Assembly (NCBI RefSeq): GCF_963921235.1
Contig: NC_086107.1
Location: 97,032,001-97,096,000 of the forward strand
DNA length: 64,000 nucleotides
Reading direction: 5' to 3'
DNA from: Mobula hypostoma
Taxonomy: Eukaryota
Both the position numbers and the translations under genes were made by a program. This document shows, piece after piece, positions 31,276-47,965 of this stretch (its first letter is position 1; every line of letters begins with the position of its first letter). The notes beneath the pieces were generated by a model. The model was not told the origin of the DNA, did no database searches, and saw only the letters and a program-made list of their open reading frames with translations.

Positions 31276-34200
31276 GTTGTGTATTTTAATATTTCAGTAA
31301 TATTTGAGTAATACTGTAAATATATTGTTTGATTAAGCATTTGTTTTTTATAAATAATTATGGATCACATAATAATTATGGGTCATATGTAAAAGTATGT
31401 GAATGGCATAAGTCATCCCACCACCACATCATATGTACGTGCCTTGCTTAAAGTAAAAATAAAACTAAGACTCACATTTACGGACTCTCTGTGTTTTCCT
31501 TTCAATTAGTTTTATGTTTTTGGAGTGGCAATAAGGAAGTTTTAAGTGAACCTGAGACTACCTGTTGAAGCACAGTGAGACATTTGAGTTAAAAAAAAAG
31601 CAGCATAACACGTGAGTCTTCAGGAAGGACTGAAATGGTCGAGTTAAAAAATAAAGTCAGAAAACAGATTAAATTCACAGGTTCATAAACAGTGAGTGCT
31701 AAGTGATAATAACCATAAATAAAAATAAAGCAGAAATGGCTGGCTACATAAGAAAGATAGATGCATTTGAATGCACAACAGATAATTTGATATTGTATGC
31801 TGAGCGAATTGAACAGTATTTTGAAGTAAATGAAACAGCCAATGAAAAATGAGTTCCAGCTTTGCTGAATGAATTGGGTTCAAAGACATACAGTTTGCTT
31901 AGCAGTTTAACTGCTCCAACCAAACCAGCCGAAATGAGCTTTGCTGTACCATGAAAGCAATGCAGGAACACTTAGAACCAAAACCATTGTTTCAAGATGA
32001 TGCCAGTGACCAATGCTGACATCCTGCAGGCAGTTCACAAAACTACTTATTTTACTTTTTTCTTTCCAATTTGATTCTATTGCTAAGTTGTGTATAATTA
32101 GAACCTGTGATTTACTTTTAATGGCGTGTTTTTAGGCCAATTGAGTAATCTGGTGCCTTGCTGTCTCTGAGGGAGTTTGGAGAGGTTGGGAGAAGAGTGC
32201 ACTGCCTGGTGGCCTGGACATCAGCACGAGCCCAAGATTAACTCCATTACTTCTCTCTGATTGAGGCGTTGACCAAGGTTGAAGTCAACAAAGATGGGAG
32301 CGGAGGACGGGCTGGTGTTTGGCGCCATTTGCCTGCGTTTGACCAGTCTTCCTCTCCCGCTAGCGGCTGTCAGAGGAAAGCGCAACAGTCTTGGGTTCCA
32401 CATTGAAAGGACTGATCAGCAAGGCTCCTGGCTGTGGACTTGTTTTGAGGGACTTTGACGTTCAAGTTGCATGTGTTACTGGATTCTGGTTACTCTTTTG
32501 TTTTGCTGATTTTGAGCAGTTTGATTGAGGCAAATGGTGAGGACTGGGCAGAACGCTTTAGATTTCAAAGCAGAATCAAAAAGAAGGGTGTATATTTCAA
32601 TGTACGTGGCTAAACTGAAGAAATTGTTTGAGCATTGTCAGTTCAGTGATGGACTGAATGATACACTGAGAGATCATTTAGTTTGTGGAATCTTGCAAGA
32701 AAGCATTCAAAAATGGCTCCTAACTGAAGCACAACTTACATCTAAAACAGCAGTTAACATTGATGTATCAATGGGAACAGCAGACAGAAGTGCAATTGAG
32801 TTGCAGTCAGGAATTAAAATAAGTGTGAGCAAAATTGCAGTATCCAAACAGAAATCAGCCTGGCCAAACAAATTGTGTTACTGTTGTGGCAGGAGCTCAC
32901 ATACGCCAGACCAATACAAGCTTAAAGGTGAAACTTGCAGAAATGCAACAAAGCAGGACACGAACAAAGATCACGTTCGGCAGAGAGTAATAAATGGACT
33001 GCACTGGGAAGAGAAAAAGATAAAAAGTCAAGTTGCAGTTTCAAAAAGAGCACTAATCTGCATACTGTTGATGAAAAATGTGATAATGATAAGAGTGACA
33101 CAGAACTGAACAGCTTTCAGATTTACAATATGATTACTAACAAGAGACAAGCAACACGCCTTACACTAGAAGTAAGTGACAAATTAATTGTAAATCTGTG
33201 GGAATGACATTTGTAACAGCGAAATACAACAACCAACAAGCCACATTGGGTTTATATGTAGTAAAAACAGGAGGACCAGCATTGTGGGAATGTGATTATA
33301 TGAGATAACTACAATTTGATTGGAGATCCATCCAGTATTTACATGCCACACCCCCTGCAATAGAGTCAGCTAAAAGCAAATGAAAAAATATACTGGATGA
33401 TATCACAGCACCACAGCAGTTTCCAAGAATGGCATTAGGAAAACTCGAGGGAGGAATAGAGTTAAATGAAAGTGCCACACACAAGTTTTACAAAACCTGT
33501 CTGGTTCCTTATACATCCATGATAAAGTAGCTAGTGAGCTGCATAGAGGCTGAAGGAATTCTTTCCAAGGTTGAGTGGAGAACGTGGACAATGCCAGTGG
33601 TCCCAGCAGCCTAAAATAATGGGTCTTTTGGGATCTGTGTTGATTTTAAGGTCAAAATCAACCCCGTACTGAAAGTAGATCAATACCCTCTGCCTAAGAT
33701 TGATGATATCTTTGCAAATCTTTTCCAGAGGAAAGTGGACTTAGCTGAGGCCTACCTACAGATGGAGATGGAAGAAGAGGCCAAAGGGTTTCTCATCAAA
33801 AGCACACGCAATGGGCTTTATTGCTATAATAGACTAATTTCTGGAGAAGCATCTGCGCCTGCACTCTGGCAGAAAGCTATAGACCAGGTGCTGAAAGGCT
33901 GCCTGGACACTCAGTGTTACCTGGATGACATCATTGTTATCAGTAAGGATGACAAGGAACATCTCCAAAATCTCAAGACAGTGTTAAAAAGGTTGGAAGG
34001 TTATGGGCTCAGAGCATGACATGACGAATGTGAATTCTTTAAACCAAGCATCACTTACTGTGGTCACACCATTGACGCACAAGAATTTACACAAGTGTGC
34101 TGAGAGAATTCAAGCAGTGGTGGATGCTCCAAGGTTAAATAACGTGTCCACAGTTGTGGTTCTTTTTAGGATTTGTCAGTTACTATAACAGGTCCCTGCT

Positions 34201-35088
34201 AAACGTGGCTACTGTGTTCCATCCCCTGAACTCATTACTACAGATTGGGAAGAAATGGCAATGGGTGAAGCAGTGTGAGGTAGCTTTCCAAAAGGTGAAG
34301 GAAATGGTGACATTAAACACAGTACTCACACATTCTGATCTACATTGCCCAGTGAAGCTTGCCTGTGATGTCTCGCCTTGTAGCACAGGTGCAGTCACAT
34401 TACATGTTATGAATGATGGAAGTGAATGCCCCACAGCCTTTACATCACCTTCTCTTATTGCTGCAGAGAAAAATTACACACAAATTGACCGAGAGACCTT
34501 GAGTCTTGTTTGGGGTGTAAAACGCTTCAACCAGTACTTGTACAGGAGAGAGTTTACCCTCATTACTGATCATCAACCACTAGTGTCCATTTTCAACCCA
34601 CAGAAGGGAGTCCCACTAACAGCAGCAGCACGAATACAGAGATGGGCGTTGCTTCTTGAAGGACACAATCACAAGATTGAATTCCAAAGGACGACTAATC
34701 ATGAAAATGCTGGTGGATTGTCAAATTTGCCCTCGGAGAATGAAGTGCCAAAAAAATTTACAGAAGTGGATAATCCTCTTGAATTATTCTCCCTAATACA
34801 GATCAGAAGCCTCCCTATTACGGCAGAAAGGAAATGAGAAAAGACCTCACACTGTCTCAGGTCTTCATGGCCACCCAGTCTGGCTGGAATGTGCAAAAGA
34901 ATTCCCAGTTCCTCTATTTTTACCAGCATCAGATGAACTTGACCTAGATGGGGGTTGCCTTATGTGGTGTTTGAGAGTTGTACCAGCCAGGCTGAAAGCT
35001 AAAATGCTGGAGGAGCGACAGGTCAGTTCTCCAGGTATGGTCAAAATGAAAGTGTTGGCTCAAAGCTTTATCTGGTGGCCTGGTTGAT
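31276..35088 (+). mobile_element. Gypsy element B (5' LTR, gag, RT, RNase H, start of integrase), 3'-truncated and degenerate
   Basis: LTR 31276-31525 homologous to 41987-42237; gag ATG at 31736; YLDD near 33918; RNase H LACD...AEKNYTQIDRETL...LITDHQPL; ends at GMVKMKVLAQSFIWWPG; unrelated insert about 31995-32560. Confidence 0.9.
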
Positions 35089-40685: not shown

Positions 40686-41427
40686 TGTATTACATTAGCA
40701 AATATCTCCGCAGGGATATCGGTCCCTCTCTGGGTCAAGTGCAACCTGTCCTTCTTGTACAGGTCATCTCTACCTCAAATGAGATCCCAATAGTCCAAGA
40801 ACCTGAATTCCTGTCCCCTACTCCAACTCATTGGACTTATCCAGCTACTTCTGACCTCACTAGTATGTAGCACCAGGAGTAATCTGGAGATGACTGTCTT
40901 TGAGGTCCTGTTTCTTACCTAACTCCCTACACTTATTCTGTAGGACTTCATCCCTAGTTTTACCCACTTTTTATGTACCAACAGCCAGAGGCTGTTCATT
41001 TTCTTCACTCTCCTGGAGAATTTTCTGCAGCCACTGAAATAACTTCTCTTGAATGGATTAACTTCACTCTGATTCCACAACCTACTGAGTCACTTTCAAG
41101 GACTTTACACCTTATGTTCAGTATTATGTGTTATTATTATTATTTGTATATTGGTTGTCTGTTTTTGTGTGTAGTTTTCCAATGTTTCTATTGTAATTAA
41201 CTGTTCTTCTGTGAATGCCTGCAAGAAAATGAATCTCAGGGTTGTATATGGTGACATGTATGCACTTCAATAATAAAGTTACTTTGAACTTTAACGCAAC
41301 CTTGACCCTGGCACCTGGGAGACAACACATCATCGTGGCATCCCTTCTGCAGCCATAGAATCTCCTCTCTGTCCTGTCCATCGAGTCTCCCATCACTATC
41401 ACCCTATCTGACTGCATCCTCCCCCAA

Positions 41428-41617
41428 CATACAAAGAGCATGTCGGGCAGATAAAAATAAACGGACTGCACAGGGAAGAGCAAAAGCTAAAAAGTCAAGC
41501 TGCAGCTTCAAAAAGAGCACCAATCTGCAAGCTGTTGATGAGAAATCTGATAACGTTGAGAGTCACACAGGACTGTGTAGCTTTGAAACTTACAGTGTGA
41601 AGGTTAGCAATAGACAT
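41428..41617 (+). mobile_element. Isolated Gypsy gag fragment
   Basis: Matches 43128-43322 and 32955-33150. Confidence 0.85.
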
Positions 41618-41986
41618 GACTACCTCTGTGAACCCATGAAAGAACATACCCCTCAACAGTTTCCAAAGGCTATACCTGTTAGTGAGGGGAATGGCCGTAA
41701 GGAGCCCAGTACTGACTGCCTACTCCCCTTAATTTCCCTATCCAAAGCCTATACCTTGGGTGTGAGCACCTCAGTAAAAGTTTCATCTATGAGGTTCTTT
41801 GCCACCTGCATAGTCCTAAGTATATCCAAACTGAGCTCCAGTTCCTTGATCTGGTCTGTCAGGAGTTGCAGGTGGGTGCTCTTCCGGTAGATCCAGTCAT
41901 CAGGGAGACCAAGAGGTTTTGTGACTCGCCACAACTTGCAGGAAGAACCTGCCATCCCAACTACATTGAATCAAGCAAAGAAAAAG

Positions 41987-44889
41987 TGTATTTAATATTT
42001 CAATAATACTTGAGTAATCTTGTATGTATATATACATCTTGGTTGATTAAGCATTGTTGTTCATTTAAATGATTAATAATGGGTTATATGCAAAAATAAA
42101 TTAATTGCATATGTCATCACACTACCACATGATATGTGTGTGCCTCTCTAAAAGTAAACTCGAACTAGACACATGTTCCTGGTCTTTTGTGTCTTCATTT
42201 GAACTAATTTAATGTTTTGAAACTGCAAAACATAACATTGGTGACGACGTATTTTTAAAATGAACCTGACACGGCTACCAGCCTGTTAAAGTGCAGTGAA
42301 ACGTTTGAAATAAAATAAAAGGCAGTGAGGAACAGGCGAGTTACCAAAACATGTGCTCTTTGGAAGGGAAGATGTGATTGATTTTTAAACAAGGCTGTAA
42401 GAGGAAATTAGGGTTCATAAAGAGTACCAGCTGATAATAATCTTTAAAAAAAACAGAAATGGCGGGCTGCATCGGAAAGATTGTTGAGTTTGATTGCATG
42501 ACAGGTAATTGGCTTGTGTATACTGAGCTATTGGAACAATGTTTTGAAGCAAATGAAATAGCCAATGAGAAGCAAATGCCAATTTTGCTGAGTTCATTGG
42601 GTTTAAAGGCATGCAGGCTTTCAATTTGACTGCTCCAACCAAACCATCAGATATAAGCTTTGCTGATATTGTAAAAGTGATACAGGAACTCTTAGAACCA
42701 AAGTCGTTGTTGATTGCAGATCACTTTAGGTTTCTTAAGCAGAATCAAAAACGAGTGGATTCCATTTCAACATACATGGCTGAATTGAGGAGATTGTCTA
42801 AGCACTGTCAGTTTGGTATTAGGCTTAATGATACACAAAGAGCTTGTTTCGTTTGTGGAATCTTAAAAGAAAGCATTCAAAAATGGCTCCTAACTGAAGC
42901 ACAGCTTACATTTAGAAGAGCAGTGGAAATTGCTGTTTCAATGGAAACTGTAGACCGAGATGCAATTGACGTAATCAGGAATGAAAGTGGGCATGAACAA
43001 AATTGCATTGTCTAAAAAGAAACTAGTCTTGCCAAACAAGTTGTGTTACCATTGTGGCAGGGGCTCACACTCACCAAACAAATGCAGATTTAAAGGTGAA
43101 ACTTGCAGATAATGCAACAAAGTAGGTCACATACAAAGAGCATGTCAGGCAAACAAAAATAAATGGAATGCACAGAGAAGAGAAAAGCATAAAAAAAAGT
43201 CAAGTTGCAGTTTCAAAAAGAGCACCAATCTGCATGCTGTTGATGAAAAATCCGATAATGAGGAGAGTGACACAGGACTGCACAGCCTTAAAATTTACAG
43301 TGTGAAAATTAACAATAGACAAGCAATATAGCTTACGCCAAAAGTGATTGGCAAATCAATTAAAATGGAATTGGACACTGGTTAGTCTGTTCATGTAACT
43401 CCAGTAAATGAGTTTGAACGCCATTTCAGAGATACTAACCTGAGGCTTACAGATATCCAACTAAGAACTTGTGCTGGAGAAAAGACCACTCCAATGAGAA
43501 TGACATTCATAAGAGTGAAATACAGTGACCAACAAGCCACATTGAGCTTGTATGTGGTGAAAACAGGAGGACCAGCATTGTGGGGTCATAATTGGCTGAG
43601 ACAACTGCAACGTGATTAGAGATCCTTCCACCACTTACATGCCACATGCCCTGCAATGAAGTCAACTGAAAGTGAATTAAGAAAGGTACTGGATGATTCC
43701 ACAACTGTCTCCACGGTGAACACTATGAACCTTAGGTCAACAGAGGACAAACAGGTGTTGGTGCCAGCCTCTGTGCCTCTGTTTGGAGAGCACATTGAAC
43801 CAAGGAAGGAACATGGGGCTCAGAGGAATTGTGAAAATGGTGAAAGCAGTGGTCTGGCTACAGCAGTTTTTGTAGGCAACATATCTGAGAAAGCTTCTGA
43901 TATGTTAATCAGAACATATCACAAGCTTTCTCAGAAATGTTAATCAGGTAGTTACTTGTGAAATGTGGCTTGGATTTAAGCTGGAAGAGAGTTCAAGGAG
44001 CTTCAGGAAAGTTGCAAGCATTCAGCTTTTATGACTATAAAGAACCAGAGTCTACTTTACGTGCGTTAAGGTTATTGCATGAATTTCAAGTGGGAGACAA
44101 AAAGTTGCTTGTAAAAGTAGATGCCCTGCTGGATGAATGGAAGGCCGAAAAGAAAGGAGTCAATGGAGATACAAAAACAGGGAATTCATCAGCTAATGCT
44201 GTGATTGAGGGAATGAAAAGGAGAGATCGGATCATAAAGGGAGCAATAGAAGGATTAATGAGAGAATACTCTAGTGAACTAAATGCATCTTCCCACGATC
44301 AAGATGCACAAACTAGAAGAAGGAAAAGGAAGAAGAAGGAAGGTGACTACTGCTATCAGAGCCACTTCCTGCAGCCCATAGTCAACTGCAATCACCATGG
44401 AGGAGGCCCCAGACCTGAGATTGTTTCACAGCCATAAGTCTCATCTGCCAAGCAGAGTGACCTCCCTTGTCAGGAAAGATATTATCCCACAAGAGTAGGA
44501 AAGCCTCCACGGTGATGAAATCTTTCAGTCTGAATGGGACAATTTAAAATTTACTATGCTGTGGATGTCTGTTTATAGCAGCTTCATTATATAATATATT
44601 GTGTCTCTAGTTGAGGTGCATTCTATATTGAGTTGGAGCTTACAGCTAAGCAGGGAAGAGTGTTGTGTATTTAATTTTTCAGTAATATTTGACTAATCTT
44701 GTACATGGATTGTTTGATTAAGATTTATGTTCATTTAATAATTAATTACATAAAATATTTAAAAATATGTTAATTGCATACATCATCATGCTACCACATG
44801 ATACATGTGTGCCTCGCTAAAAGTAAACTTGAACTAGACTCGTATTCCCAGTCTCTCATGTCATCTGAATTAATTTTTGAAGCTACAAA
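41987..44889 (+). mobile_element. Gypsy element C: two LTRs, gag and protease, with pol replaced by RBM25 sequence
   Basis: 5' LTR 41987-42237 ending ACA plus PBS TGGTGACGAC; gag ATG at 42459 with CCHC knuckles; protease MELDTG; PPT AAGCAGGGAAGAG then 3' LTR 44661 to about 44889. Confidence 0.92.
43755..44342 (+). pseudogene. RBM25: Intronless RBM25 fragment (RRM region) captured in a Gypsy element
   Basis: VFVGNISEKASDMLIR...KCGLDLSWKRVQGASGKLQAFSFYDYKEPESTLRALRLLHEFQVGDKKLLVKVDA...KRRDRIIKGAIEGLMREYSSELNA matches the RBM25 N-terminal RRM as I recall it; 35-bp duplication and TAG at 43949 disrupt the frame. Confidence 0.92.
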
Positions 44890-44949
44890 GCCTTACCTGT
44901 TGTTATTTGAAGATCCAGAACTCTGGAAGTCAGCCCAGTAACACAGCTG

Positions 44950-45510
44950 GCGTCACGTAACCGTAGTGGTTAGCACAATATTATTGCTGCTCAGGGGTGC
45001 TCTGCAGGTCAGAGTTCAATCCTGGCGCTGTTCCGTAAGGAGTCTCTGTACGTCCTCCCCATGGAATGTTTGGGTTTTCCCCGGGTGCTCCGGTTTACAC
45101 TTACAGTTCGAAAACATACCGGGTAGGTTAACTGGCCTGTGATTAAGTTAGGGTTAATCGGGGTTGTGTGGGCATGTGGCCAAGTGGTTAAGGCATTGGG
45201 CTAGTGACCTGAAGGTCGTGAGTTCGAGCCCCAGCAGAGGCAACGTGTTGTGTCCTTGAGCAAGGCACTTAGCACACGTTGCTCTGCGATGACACTGGTG
45301 CCAAGCTGTATGGGTCCTAATGCCCTTCCCTTGGACAACATTGGTGTCGTGGAGAGGGGAAATTTGCAGCATGGGCAATTGCTAGTCTTCCATACAACCT
45401 TGCCCAGGCCTGCACCCTGGAGAGTGAAGACTTCCCAGGCGAAGATCCATGGCCTTGCAAGACTAATGGATGCCTTTATTCGGGGTTGGGGGGTCACTGG
45501 GGTAGCGTAG
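44950..45510 (+). mobile_element. tRNA-SINE containing a second nested tRNA-SINE (about 45167-45478)
   Basis: Outer head ccgtagtggttagc...gagttcaatcc; inner head gtggccaagtggttaagg...gagttcgagcc; tcggggtt repeated at both flanks of the inner element. Confidence 0.8.
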
Positions 45511-47505: not shown

Positions 47506-47965
47506 GGGAAGAAGGAGGAGAGGAAGCATAATGGATGGCAGCACTCTTTTAGCTATAAACATACATGAGGTTCCCTGACTCCCTACATCTTGTAGGAGGA
47601 ACTTATCTGCCATCCTGTCTTCACTAAATCAAGTACTAAGGATCGCCAGCCTTACCTATAGTTATTTGATGATCCAGAACTCTAGGAGACAGTCCAACAA
47701 CTTAACTGGGTGTCACGGCACCGTAGTGGTTGGCGCAACGCGATTACAGCTCAGAGCATTCTGGAGTTTGGAGTTCAGCTCTGGCACCGTCTGTAAGCAG
47801 TCTCTGTACGTCCTCCCGATAATTCCAAATATATTATAAATAGCCAAAGATGACATAATTTCCAAGGGTTCATTGTGAACCGACCAGTAAGTGTAACATA
47901 CAGCAGGCAGGAAACTGTGCCAGCAGAAACATAAAGTAAATATAAGTGTAAATGCAGACATTGTA

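What the first reader, a model, noticed from the sequence alone, without database searches (positions are those of the whole stretch)
41987..44889. Gypsy LTR retrotransposon carrying a captured, apparently spliced RBM25 mRNA segment in place of pol
Seen: LTR-PBS-gag-protease, then about 640 bp of non-Gypsy sequence, then the Gypsy 3' region (PEIVSQP, YPTRVGKPP), PPT and LTR. The sister element at 31276-35088 has RT/RNaseH at this position. Known: 43755-44342 translates to the RRM region of splicing regulator RBM25, which spans several exons in vertebrates, yet it is continuous here. The 5' junction is in frame with pol (STESELRKVLDD-STTV...KQ-VLVP). Inference: template switching onto co-packaged host mRNA during reverse transcription, analogous to retroviral oncogene capture. 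The cis elements needed for mobilisation (LTRs, PBS, PPT) are recognisable, so this could be a non-autonomous family spreading an RRM domain. This copy is disabled.
Basis: partly seen in the sequence, partly recalled or inferred. Interest (0 to 1): 0.82.

Follow-up and report, generated by a model that had tools for sequence, protein, structure and literature searches.

The report
Gypsy retrotransposon family carrying spliced RBM25
This is one decayed copy of a large family of defective Gypsy-type jumping genes that long ago swapped their copying enzymes for a spliced piece of the host's RBM25 splicing-factor messenger RNA and then spread through the genome.

Summary
Window 41987-44897 is an LTR element with gag and protease. 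Its RT, RNase H and integrase core are replaced by 634 nt (43707-44340) made of five host RBM25 exons joined at their splice sites.

The host gene (contig C1) has introns of 1.7-4.8 kb at these joins, and run contigs join three of them identically.

The piece is not private. Thirty other loci on many contigs span both junctions. An RBM25-only probe gave 2,750 first-look candidates, of which all 40 scored matched. The 5' junction is the same in 30 of 30 copies and flanks differ, so this is an amplified non-autonomous family. A stingray gene model carries the same junction.

The founder carried about 1.05 kb (eight exons). The window copy is a short form with an internal deletion.

The 3' junction lies mid-exon in a purine-rich microhomology, which fits template switching. 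The 5' junction starts at an exon's first base, which suggests splicing.

The cargo evolved neutrally. Copies lie about 0.12 substitutions per site from their ancestor.

The mechanism is known (LTR-mediated retroposition, Bs1, crocodilian ERV captures). The copy number and the RBM25 cargo appear undescribed.

The parts
41987..42237 (+). 5' LTR (TG...CA, about 251 nt)
   Evidence: It pairs with 44666-44897 (76% identity; K2P 0.23 over 211 nt). The same start and end are seen in the aligned LTRs of other copies.
42239..42249 (+). PBS-like motif (TGGTGACGACG), one base after the LTR
   Evidence: A TGG-led motif sits at the same place in 7 family copies and 5 autonomous relatives. The primer tRNA was not identified, and ARAGORN found no tRNA gene in the window.
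42459..43330 (+). gag remnant (ATG at 42459; CCHC knuckles around 43040-43150), with several stops and frameshifts
   Evidence: ORF list. It is 79% identical to the sister element at 32548-33189. The zf-CCHC match is only weak (E 0.18).
43331..43703 (+). Protease remnant (DTG at 43374-43382) and the first codons of pol after it; last Gypsy-homologous bases
   Evidence: 43495-43703 is 79% identical to sister 33199-33407. Aspartyl-protease Pfam matches in copy L015 fall below the curated cut-off.
43704..43706 (+). 5' junction triplet (ACT; autonomous elements have GCA followed by GT)
   Evidence: Alignment of 30 family copies, 12 autonomous copies and the host exons.
43707..43754 (+). RBM25 exon X (48 nt)
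   Evidence: Window 43707-43756 matches host C1:99832633-99832584 at 82% over 50 nt; exon X is the first 48 nt (to 99832586). In the host gene the exon is flanked by a pyrimidine tract plus CAG and by GTAAC. Its peptide is present in a shark RBM25-like model, P0121.
43755..43960 (+). RBM25 exon A (start of the RRM), interrupted by a private 35-nt inverted duplication at 43913-43947
   Evidence: 90% over 160 nt to host C1:99829162-99829003. 43913-43941 matches the same exon on the opposite strand. The duplication is absent from 29 of 29 other copies.
43961..44018 (+). RBM25 exon B
   Evidence: 93% over 59 nt to host C1:99827252-99827194. Run contigs join A>B and B>C at these bases.
44019..44167 (+). 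RBM25 exon C (end of the RRM), with a 12-nt deletion
   Evidence: 82% over 164 columns to host C1:99824417-99824254.
44168..44340 (+). RBM25 exon D up to its lysine-rich end; short-form deletion point and 3' junction (overlap 44334-44340)
   Evidence: 83% over 174 columns to host C1:99819430-99819258. Long-form copies continue here with exons E, F and part of G.
44341..44515 (+). Integrase C-terminal tail remnant, in frame with the cargo, ending at TGATGA
   Evidence: EL 44334-44722 matches autonomous copy L052 4193-4581 at 82%, and five further copies match from 44334-44341 (L047, L048, L053, L054, L057; L055 only from 44354). The frame was compared with L052 integrase.
44516..44647 (+). 3' untranslated internal region
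   Evidence: Shared with family copies and autonomous relatives.
44648..44665 (+). Polypurine tract region immediately before the 3' LTR
   Evidence: A purine-rich motif is conserved before the LTR start in the aligned copies.
44666..44897 (+). 3' LTR
   Evidence: Copies become unrelated to each other immediately after the terminal ...ATAACA.
31276..35088 (+). Sister element of the autonomous type, 3'-truncated (LTR, gag, PR, RT, RNase H)
   Evidence: Pfam finds RVT_1 and RT_RNaseH.

Best explanation
Window 41987-44897 is a dead, short-form member of a non-autonomous Ty3/Gypsy LTR-retrotransposon family.

The founder. It kept the LTRs, a PBS-like site, the PPT, gag, protease and the last roughly 58 codons of integrase. 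RT, RNase H and the integrase core were replaced by about 1.05 kb of spliced host RBM25 mRNA (exons X, A-F and the first roughly 33 nt of G). This covers the RRM and the Arg/Glu-rich region, and it is in frame at both ends.

Capture (inferred). It happened during reverse transcription inside a virus-like particle, as in LTR-mediated retroposition and retroviral oncogene transduction.
- The 3' junction lies inside exon G, in a purine-rich stretch shared with the element (GAGAAGAAA..GG). This fits a microhomology-guided template switch.
- The 5' junction begins at the first base of exon X, opposite a GT in the autonomous element. I favour splicing of a read-through chimeric transcript from a cryptic donor in pol (about 55%) over a second template switch (about 35%).

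Spread. The chimera was copied in trans by its autonomous sister family, at the same time as that family. It reached at least tens of copies, probably hundreds to a few thousand.

Short form. A deletion between two similar purine-rich tracts removed exons E-G and produced the more numerous short form.

Role of the cargo. It behaved as a passenger with no detectable constraint. All copies examined are now decayed.
For: Identity of the cargo: vertebrate RBM25, E 2.8e-45. It is 82-93% identical to the genome's own RBM25 exons.

Splicing:
- In host C1 the exons are separated by introns of 3.4, 1.7, 2.7 and 4.8 kb with GT..AG ends.
- In long forms the captured exons span 23.4 kb of the gene.
- Run contigs join X>A (3 of 4 runs laid), A>B and B>C (4 of 4) at the same bases.

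Amplification:
- 30 of 39 other loci span both junctions in one alignment.
- The 371-nt cargo-only probe gave 2,750 first-look candidates, and 40 of 40 scored matched at 83-87%.
- The exon E/F probe gave 539 candidates, and 40 of 40 scored matched.
- The 5' junction is at the same place in 30 of 30 copies.
- Gypsy sequence resumes at the same place in the 24 copies plus EL that could be anchored.
- Flanks are unrelated beyond the LTR end.

Loss of the enzymes: autonomous relatives carry RVT_1, RT_RNaseH and an integrase between the two breakpoints.

Timing:
- The gag-PR tree is a star with terminal branches of 0.10-0.21 (median 0.13), and family and autonomous copies are interleaved.
- LTR-LTR K2P is 0.16-0.25 in the 4 elements with at least 80 nt aligned.

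Passenger status:
- Changes seen in 1 copy are 21% synonymous (107 of 504).
- Changes shared by 4-14 copies are 24% synonymous (17 of 71; Fisher p 0.64 against singletons).
- The random expectation is 21.6%.
- Changes shared by 15-30 copies are 77% synonymous (23 of 30). This fits change in the host gene after capture.

Second species: gene model P0190 of Hypanus sabinus starts with the same Gypsy/exon X/exon A junction. Its other part has matches of at most 46% identity in this genome.
Against: - A target-site duplication was seen in only 1 of the 3 elements for which both flanks were held: GTTA in L014, none in the window copy or L026.
- Copy number rests on unscored first-look candidates. 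Only 40 were scored per search.
- The copies analysed are the best-scoring ones, so divergence is biased low.
- The tree does not show the family as one clade. It only fails to reject it (AU p 0.47).
- For the splice reading, the putative donor in the autonomous copies (..GCA|GTGTTC) is weak.
- No relic of this Gypsy family lies in the host intron upstream of exon X. The nearest LTR-like matches are antisense and more than 36 kb upstream.
- The three bases before exon X differ from the autonomous copies: ACT, or ACA in four copies, versus GCA.
- What precedes exon X in host mRNA is unresolved. The upstream coding exon ends in phase 1 while exon X reads in phase 0.
- gag and protease are recognised mainly by homology to the sister element. 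Their Pfam matches are below cut-off.
Confidence: 0.9

Rival explanations
1. Both junctions were made by two microhomology-guided template switches of reverse transcriptase between a co-packaged, fully spliced RBM25 mRNA and Gypsy RNA. This is the double-switch model of LTR-mediated retroposition, with no chimeric transcript or splicing involved.
For: - This is the general mechanism documented in animals, where 25 of 29 junctions had microsimilarity with a median of 6 bp (passages of PMC5131818 read).
- The 3' junction here fits it well.
- At the 5' junction the element and exon X share GT and scattered further bases.
- No Gypsy relic lies in the host intron.
Against: - The host-derived part starts exactly at the first base of exon X. 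With a switch allowed anywhere in a mRNA of a few kb, I estimate that as a coincidence of a few percent.
- The 5' microhomology is short and imperfect.
Confidence: 0.35
2. The RBM25 RRM and Arg/Glu-rich module was an adaptive domain gain. Fused in frame to Gag-protease, it would have helped the element, for example in RNA binding, packaging or nuclear localisation, and that would explain its success.
For: - Both junctions are in frame, about 1 in 9 by chance.
- The chimeric family is abundant.
- The 284-aa frame in copy L009 is open across both junctions and has a recognisable RRM_1.
Against: - Variants shared by 4-14 copies are 24% synonymous, the same as private decay (21%) and random expectation (21.6%).
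- The commonest form has lost the Arg/Glu-rich half.
- Several internal-deletion variants of the cargo coexist.
Confidence: 0.07
3. A LINE-made processed RBM25 pseudogene landed in, or recombined at DNA level with, a Gypsy copy. The hybrid was then mobilised.
For: The cargo is intronless. LINE-type retrocopies are common in vertebrates (general knowledge).
Against: - There is no poly(A) tail. The mRNA piece is cut at both ends, inside the coding region.
- It replaces about 3 kb of pol instead of interrupting it.
- No target duplication flanks the piece.
- There is microhomology at the 3' junction.
Confidence: 0.03
4. The many copies arose by segmental or tandem DNA duplication, not by retrotransposition.
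For: One locus (L028) carries two RBM25 segments in tandem.
Against: - The matches lie on 17 contigs.
- Similarity stops exactly at the LTR ends and the flanks are unrelated.
- The tree is a star with near-zero internal branches.
- There is one clean 4-bp target duplication.
Confidence: 0.02

Closest known systems
LTR-mediated retroposition chimeras in animals (Tan et al. 2016, Genome Res 26:1663, PMC5131818; abstract and passages read)
   Same: - An intron-less, partial mRNA copy replaces part of the internal ORFs between two LTRs.
- There is microsimilarity at the fusion points and no poly(A).
- The chimera can act as a non-autonomous element and be retroposed again.
   Different: - In the passages read, only two fly retrocopies were described as having more than one insertion site. 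Here there are at least 30 loci with both junctions and thousands of candidates.
- The 5' fusion point here coincides with an exon boundary.
- The family here is old, not young or polymorphic.
Maize Bs1 LTR retroelement (Jin & Bennetzen 1994; Elrouby & Bureau 2001, 2010; seen only as described in review PMC13317346, and in PMC5131818)
   Same: An LTR element that lost pol and carries transduced pieces of host genes read as a hybrid ORF with gag.
   Different: Bs1 is a plant element with three different gene fragments. This one is from a vertebrate and carries one multi-exon fragment. That Bs1 is low-copy is my recollection, not something read in these calls.
Crocodilian ERV captures of KIT-ligand and nectin3 mRNA (Chong et al. 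2014, Retrovirology 11:71, PMC4299795; abstract and section 15 read)
   Same: Vertebrate LTR elements that took up a host mRNA. The nectin3 case came at the expense of a viral gene and then spread by retrotransposition.
   Different: Those are retroviruses (ERVs) carrying whole ORFs reported to be under purifying selection. Here a Gypsy element carries an internal fragment fused in frame, with no detectable selection.
Acutely transforming retroviruses (v-onc transduction by read-through transcript plus non-homologous recombination; Swain & Coffin 1992 as cited in PMC5131818; details recalled)
   Same: Replication genes are replaced by spliced host exons, the result is defective and depends on a helper, and the 3' junction is made by illegitimate template switching. 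The exon-boundary 5' junction matches the read-through/splice version of that model.
   Different: This is not an infectious virus and there is no sign that the cargo was selected. The germ-line amplification is massive.
HERV-K capture of FAM8A1 (Jamain et al. 2001, as cited in PMC5131818)
   Same: An LTR element with a captured gene and microsimilarity at the fusion points.
   Different: PMC5131818 describes it as a single case that yielded an untranscribed processed pseudogene.

Membership tests
Ty3/Gypsy (Metaviridae) LTR retrotransposon, non-autonomous derivative | Two direct LTRs with TG...CA ends bounding the unit | tested here: met
   The LTRs are 41987-42237 and 44666-44897, and the same termini are seen in the aligned copies.
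Ty3/Gypsy (Metaviridae) LTR retrotransposon, non-autonomous derivative | Primer-binding site next to the 5' LTR and polypurine tract next to the 3' LTR | tested here: met
   The TGG-led motif and the purine tract are conserved in family and autonomous copies. The tRNA was not identified.
Ty3/Gypsy (Metaviridae) LTR retrotransposon, non-autonomous derivative | Pol domain order PR-RT-RNase H-IN in the autonomous relatives | tested here: met
   The sister element and loci L047-L057 have RVT_1 then RT_RNaseH above Pfam cut-offs. Integrase motifs follow, but the rve match is below cut-off (E 0.0031).
Ty3/Gypsy (Metaviridae) LTR retrotransposon, non-autonomous derivative | gag with zinc knuckle, and aspartic protease | tested here: inconclusive
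   CCHC and DTG motifs are visible. Pfam matches are below cut-off. Homology to the sister's gag-PR is 79%.
Ty3/Gypsy (Metaviridae) LTR retrotransposon, non-autonomous derivative | Short target-site duplication | tested here: inconclusive
   GTTA/GTTA in L014, none in the window copy or L026 (1 of 3). Flanks of further copies could not be fetched.
LTR-mediated retroposition / transduced-gene LTR element | Host-derived insert lacks the parental introns | tested here: met
   Four joins are seamless in the window copy and seven in long forms, against introns in host C1. Run contigs show the same X>A, A>B and B>C joins.
LTR-mediated retroposition / transduced-gene LTR element | Insert replaces internal element sequence and has no poly(A) | tested here: met
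   RT, RNase H and the integrase core are missing. The mRNA piece ends inside exon G in long forms, or at the end of exon D in short forms.
LTR-mediated retroposition / transduced-gene LTR element | Microsimilarity at the fusion points | tested here: met
   At the 3' junction a purine-rich stretch of about 9-12 nt is shared. At the 5' junction only GT plus scattered bases are shared, so that end is weaker.
LTR-mediated retroposition / transduced-gene LTR element | Further rounds of retroposition of the chimera | tested here: met
   The same junctions occur in 30 other loci with unrelated flanks.
Functional RBM25 paralogue / retrogene | Intact ORF with RRM and C-terminal PWI domain, under purifying selection | tested here: not met
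   The piece covers only about gar residues 61-410. The PWI exons occur once in the genome. Stops are present in most copies. Substitutions within the family are neutral.
LINE-type processed pseudogene | 3' poly(A) tail and target duplication directly around the retrocopy | tested here: not met
   Neither is present at 43703-43707 or 44334-44341, nor in the aligned copies.

The most novel reading that the evidence does not exclude
The in-frame Gag-protease-RBM25 (RRM plus Arg/Glu-rich) fusion was not a mere passenger. In this reading a splicing-factor RNA-binding module gave a defective Gypsy element an edge in packaging or nuclear handling of its own RNA. Alternatively, its thousands of antisense-capable copies now feed small RNAs that tune host RBM25. 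Either would explain why a pol-less chimera became so numerous and persists in more than one cartilaginous-fish-like genome.
Probability: 0.07. Interest if true: 0.75.

Novelty: new member of a known kind. Interest (0 to 1): 0.5.

Why it matters
- It is a clean vertebrate case of host-mRNA transduction by a Gypsy element, with both junctions readable. The captured exons were carried to hundreds or thousands of sites, whereas the animal examples I read about are single or few copies.
- The parental gene is in hand, so the two junction types can be compared directly: one mid-exon with microhomology, one at an exon boundary. That bears on whether the retroviral read-through/splice route also operates for retrotransposons.
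- Practically, the family scatters RRM-coding pseudo-exons through the genome and already contaminates gene models, such as the 'GTF2IRD2-like' model P0190. Repeat libraries for these genomes should include it.
- The host gene's mostly synonymous divergence from the family also gives an internal clock for dating the burst.

Tried and rejected
- **PDB sequence search with the 161-aa frame.** It returned only generic RRM proteins at E >= 0.006 and was no help.
- **Pfam on the window copy's own frames.** Nothing was above cut-off because the copy is too decayed.
- **ARAGORN on the window.** It found no tRNA gene, so the primer tRNA is unidentified. A resemblance of the PBS to a tRNA-Trp-type site is only recalled and is not claimed.
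- **Sequencing runs.** No RNA holder is listed; the kinds of the runs are guesses. Expression of the window copy itself was not tested, because the single read-laying run went to the host gene.
- **What precedes exon X in host mRNA.** The output as shown did not tell this.
- **Gypsy relic in the host RBM25 intron.** None was found. This neither supports nor excludes the read-through model, since a progenitor insertion need not have been fixed.
- **Earlier notes of the scan.** None mentions RBM25.
- **Literature searches.** RBM25 + LTR retrotransposon gave 6 papers, RBM25 + retrocop* gave 1, and elasmobranch/Gypsy/captured was also tried. By their titles and the abstract openings shown, none describes this family. 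Subscription journals and repeat databases (Repbase, Dfam) were not searchable.
- **Reading the bases before exon X as derived from the upstream RBM25 exon (shared GCCAC).** I considered this and judged it less parsimonious: it needs two indels, whereas deriving them from Gypsy needs one or two substitutions.
- **Flanks of further copies for target-duplication counts.** These could not be obtained.
Full report
**Anatomy of the window copy**

The region is an LTR element. Its two LTRs (41986-42210 and 44665-44876 in BLAST) are 76% identical.

I aligned the 3' LTRs of the other genomic copies that could be anchored (26 loci, one of which did not align) with both LTRs of this copy. This fixes the LTR start at TGTATTT... 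(41987 and 44666). It fixes the LTR end at ...ATAACA, which is 42237 in the 5' LTR and, in decayed form, 44897 in the 3' LTR. Past that point the copies are unrelated to one another. The element is therefore 41987-44897, eight bases longer than the finding says.

- A TGG-led PBS-like motif follows the 5' LTR (42239-42249). It recurs in 7 family copies and 5 autonomous relatives.
- A purine tract precedes the 3' LTR.
- Between them lie a broken gag (ATG at 42459, CCHC knuckles) and a protease with DTG at 43374-43382.
- Homology to the sister element at 31279-33407 runs to 43703 and stops.
- The sister continues with RVT_1 (E 7.5e-13) and RT_RNaseH (E 8.6e-27).
- From 44334 the window copy matches the region just after the integrase of autonomous relatives. 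The best match is L052 4193-4581 at 82%.

**The foreign piece is spliced RBM25**

The frame 43952-44434 finds vertebrate RBM25, best E 2.8e-45 at 66-68% identity.

The window's genome (3.48 Gb; the window is C45:97032001-97096000) has one RBM25 gene with the C-terminal PWI exons on contig C1, minus strand. I fetched 120 kb there and mapped the exons.

| Window part | Host exon | Identity |
|---|---|---|
| 43707-43754 | 48-nt exon X | 82% |
| 43755-43960 | exon A | 90% |
| 43961-44018 | exon B | 93% |
| 44019-44167 | exon C | 82%, with a 12-nt gap |
| 44168-44340 | exon D | 83% |

- In the gene these exons are separated by introns of about 3.4, 1.7, 2.7 and 4.8 kb with canonical ends.
- Contigs of public runs laid on the gene join X>A (3 of 4 runs), A>B and B>C (4 of 4) at exactly these bases. 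The runs' kind is only guessed to be RNA.
- The exon X peptide also opens a shark RBM25-like model, P0121.
- So the 'STTV...KQ' linker of the finding is itself RBM25.
- The RRM frame in this copy is broken by a 35-nt inverted duplication of the end of exon A (43913-43947). None of 29 other copies has it.

**It is a family, not a one-off**

- I used window 43600-44450 as a DNA query. Of 39 other loci scored on 17 contigs, 30 span both junctions in one alignment at 74-79% identity.
- A cargo-only probe (43960-44330) gave 2,750 first-look candidates. All 40 that were scored matched at 83-87%. These candidate numbers are a rough index, not a count.
- In an alignment of 29 loci plus the window copy, with 11 autonomous loci and the sister, the switch from Gypsy to exon X is at the same place in 30 of 30. 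Two copies have small deletions there.
- Gypsy sequence resumes at the same place in all 24 loci plus the window copy that could be anchored.
- P0190, a Hypanus sabinus gene model, begins with the same protease-tail/exon X/exon A junction.
- The rest of that model has matches of at most 46% identity in this genome. The window's genome is therefore probably another species and the family is shared.

**The founder was longer**

- A protein search with gar RBM25 returned 54 scored matches, all continuous across the positions of the host introns. Several reach residue about 410.
- Eight of the ten loci taken from that search carry exon E.
- In the five of them checked against the host DNA (L021, L022, L024, L025, L026) exon F follows. 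L022 and L025 also carry the first roughly 33 nt of exon G.
- The captured exons span 23.4 kb of the gene, about 1.05 kb once spliced.
- The long forms share both the 5' junction and the Gypsy resumption point with the short forms.
- The short form, which includes the window copy, is therefore an internal deletion. It runs from the lysine-rich end of exon D to the junction, between two similar purine-rich tracts.
- An exon E/F probe gave 539 candidates, with 40 of 40 scored matching. Short forms thus seem the majority.

**Junctions and mechanism**

*3' junction.* In long forms it lies inside exon G. The mRNA reads ...GGAGAAGAAAAGGG... and autonomous copies read ...GGAGAAGAAAGGTG... just after the integrase motif HIDQL. 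This is roughly 9-12 nt of microhomology, the signature described for LTR-mediated retroposition (passages of PMC5131818).

*5' junction.* Autonomous copies read ...GATGATGCCACAGCA|GTGTTC. The family reads ...GATGATGCCACAACT|GTCTCC, and four copies (L023, L024, L025, L027) have ACA in place of ACT. The host part starts at the first base of exon X, which follows a pyrimidine tract and CAG in the gene.

A switch at an arbitrary point of the mRNA would rarely hit an exon's first base. This favours a chimeric read-through transcript spliced from a cryptic GT in pol to the exon X acceptor, as in the classical oncogene-capture model. That model would then need only one illegitimate switch.

Three points count against the splice reading:
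- The donor is weak.
- No relic of this Gypsy family lies in the intron.
- I could not establish what precedes exon X in host mRNA, because the upstream coding exon and exon X are out of phase in my gene model.

I put the splice route at about 55% and a second switch at about 35%.

Both junctions keep the reading frame. The protease frame runs into exon X. The cargo frame runs into the integrase tail and reaches the natural TGATGA stop at 44513-44518.

**Age and dynamics**

- A maximum-likelihood tree of about 985 nt of gag-protease was built from 21 family rows and 11 autonomous rows. Copies with less than 600 nt aligned were left out.
- The tree is a star. Terminal branches are 0.10-0.21 with a median of 0.13, and no inner branch is well supported.
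- The two kinds of element are interleaved. Holding the family together costs 2.4 log-likelihood units (AU p 0.47).
- LTR-LTR distances within elements are K2P 0.16-0.25 in the 4 elements with at least 80 nt aligned. The window copy is 0.23.
- The chimera thus arose from, and spread together with, its autonomous helper in one old burst.
- Without the species' mutation rate I can only say tens of millions to more than a hundred million years.
- The copies analysed are the best-scoring ones, so the divergence is biased low.

**Was the cargo useful?**

I compared the 30 copies with the 615-nt host exon sequence.

| Number of copies sharing a change | Synonymous | Of total | Percent |
|---|---|---|---|
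| 1 | 107 | 504 | 21% |
| 4-14 | 17 | 71 | 24% |
| 15-30 | 23 | 30 | 77% |
| All possible changes (random expectation) | – | – | 21.6% |

- The 4-14 class does not differ from singletons (Fisher p 0.64).
- The 15-30 class differs strongly (p 7e-10).
- The near-fixed, mostly synonymous differences are what one expects from the host gene evolving under constraint since the capture.
- Within the family the cargo drifted freely.
- Together with the loss of half the cargo in the commonest form, this marks it as a passenger.

**Comparison with what is known**

The kind is known.
- LTR-mediated retroposition with microsimilarity is described in flies, mosquito, zebrafish, chicken and mammals. It includes hints of re-mobilisation (PMC5131818; abstract and passages).
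- Maize Bs1 is known to me only as described in review PMC13317346.
- Crocodilian ERV captures of KIT-ligand and nectin3 mRNAs are described in PMC4299795 (abstract and section 15).

Three features look undescribed in the library I could search: a Gypsy element carrying an eight-exon RBM25 fragment, its amplification to this scale in a vertebrate, and a 5' junction at an exon boundary. Repeat databases and subscription journals were out of reach. I therefore class it as a new member of a known kind.

**Limits**

- Target duplications could be checked in only three elements, and one was clean. Further flanks could not be fetched.
- Copy numbers are unscored candidate counts.
- Expression of the family was not examined.

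Noticed in passing
window 43913-43947: A 35-nt insertion consisting of the reverse complement of the preceding exon-A bases plus a repeat of AATCAG. It looks like a snap-back type of duplication. It is private to this copy (0 of 29 others).
   Followed up: yes
L047:1100-1320 and L048:1120-1320 (minus strand): Two 'autonomous-type' copies lack the integrase core. Their deletion ends at the same purine-rich spot (GGAAAGGTG...CCAGAG) where the RBM25 cargo joins the element and where the short-form deletion ends. That tract may be a hotspot for template switching, or an internal polypurine tract.
   Followed up: partly
host gene, G000:C1:99840521-99832633 (loci L036, L037): The conserved N-terminal coding exon of RBM25 (...PPSVPPG) ends in phase 1 at a good GTATGT donor, while the next known exon (X, 48 nt) reads in phase 0. 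An unseen small exon, another splice choice or an assembly error must lie between them.
   Followed up: partly
protein P0190 (Hypanus sabinus, 383 aa): This public gene model fuses 78 residues of the Gypsy-RBM25 junction to a GTF2IRD2-like (transposase-derived) body. It is probably an annotation artefact caused by this repeat family.
   Followed up: partly
window 41427-41616: A 190-nt fragment of another related Gypsy gag lies just upstream of the element, 84.5% identical to 43129-43321. An open frame over 41306-41890 continues into unrelated sequence.
   Followed up: no
window 44889-44994 and 47648-47754: The sequence directly downstream of the element repeats 2.7 kb further on at 77.6% over 107 nt. 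It is probably a short interspersed repeat.
   Followed up: no
L028:1470-2600: This locus carries two RBM25 cargo segments one after the other (gar residues 102-220 and 72-269), so it is a tandemly duplicated or nested copy.
   Followed up: no
G000:C1:99876650-99876890 and 99906403-99906635: Two solo-LTR-like matches of this Gypsy family lie upstream of the host RBM25 gene, in antisense orientation, 36 kb and 66 kb from its first mapped coding exon.
   Followed up: no
family copies, bases right after the 3' junction: Two sequence types occur after the junction...GGTGGCTACTGCTGTCAG (window copy and several other short forms) and ...GGTGTCCAGAGCTGTCAG (most others and the autonomous copies). This indicates at least two sublineages among the short forms.
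   Followed up: no
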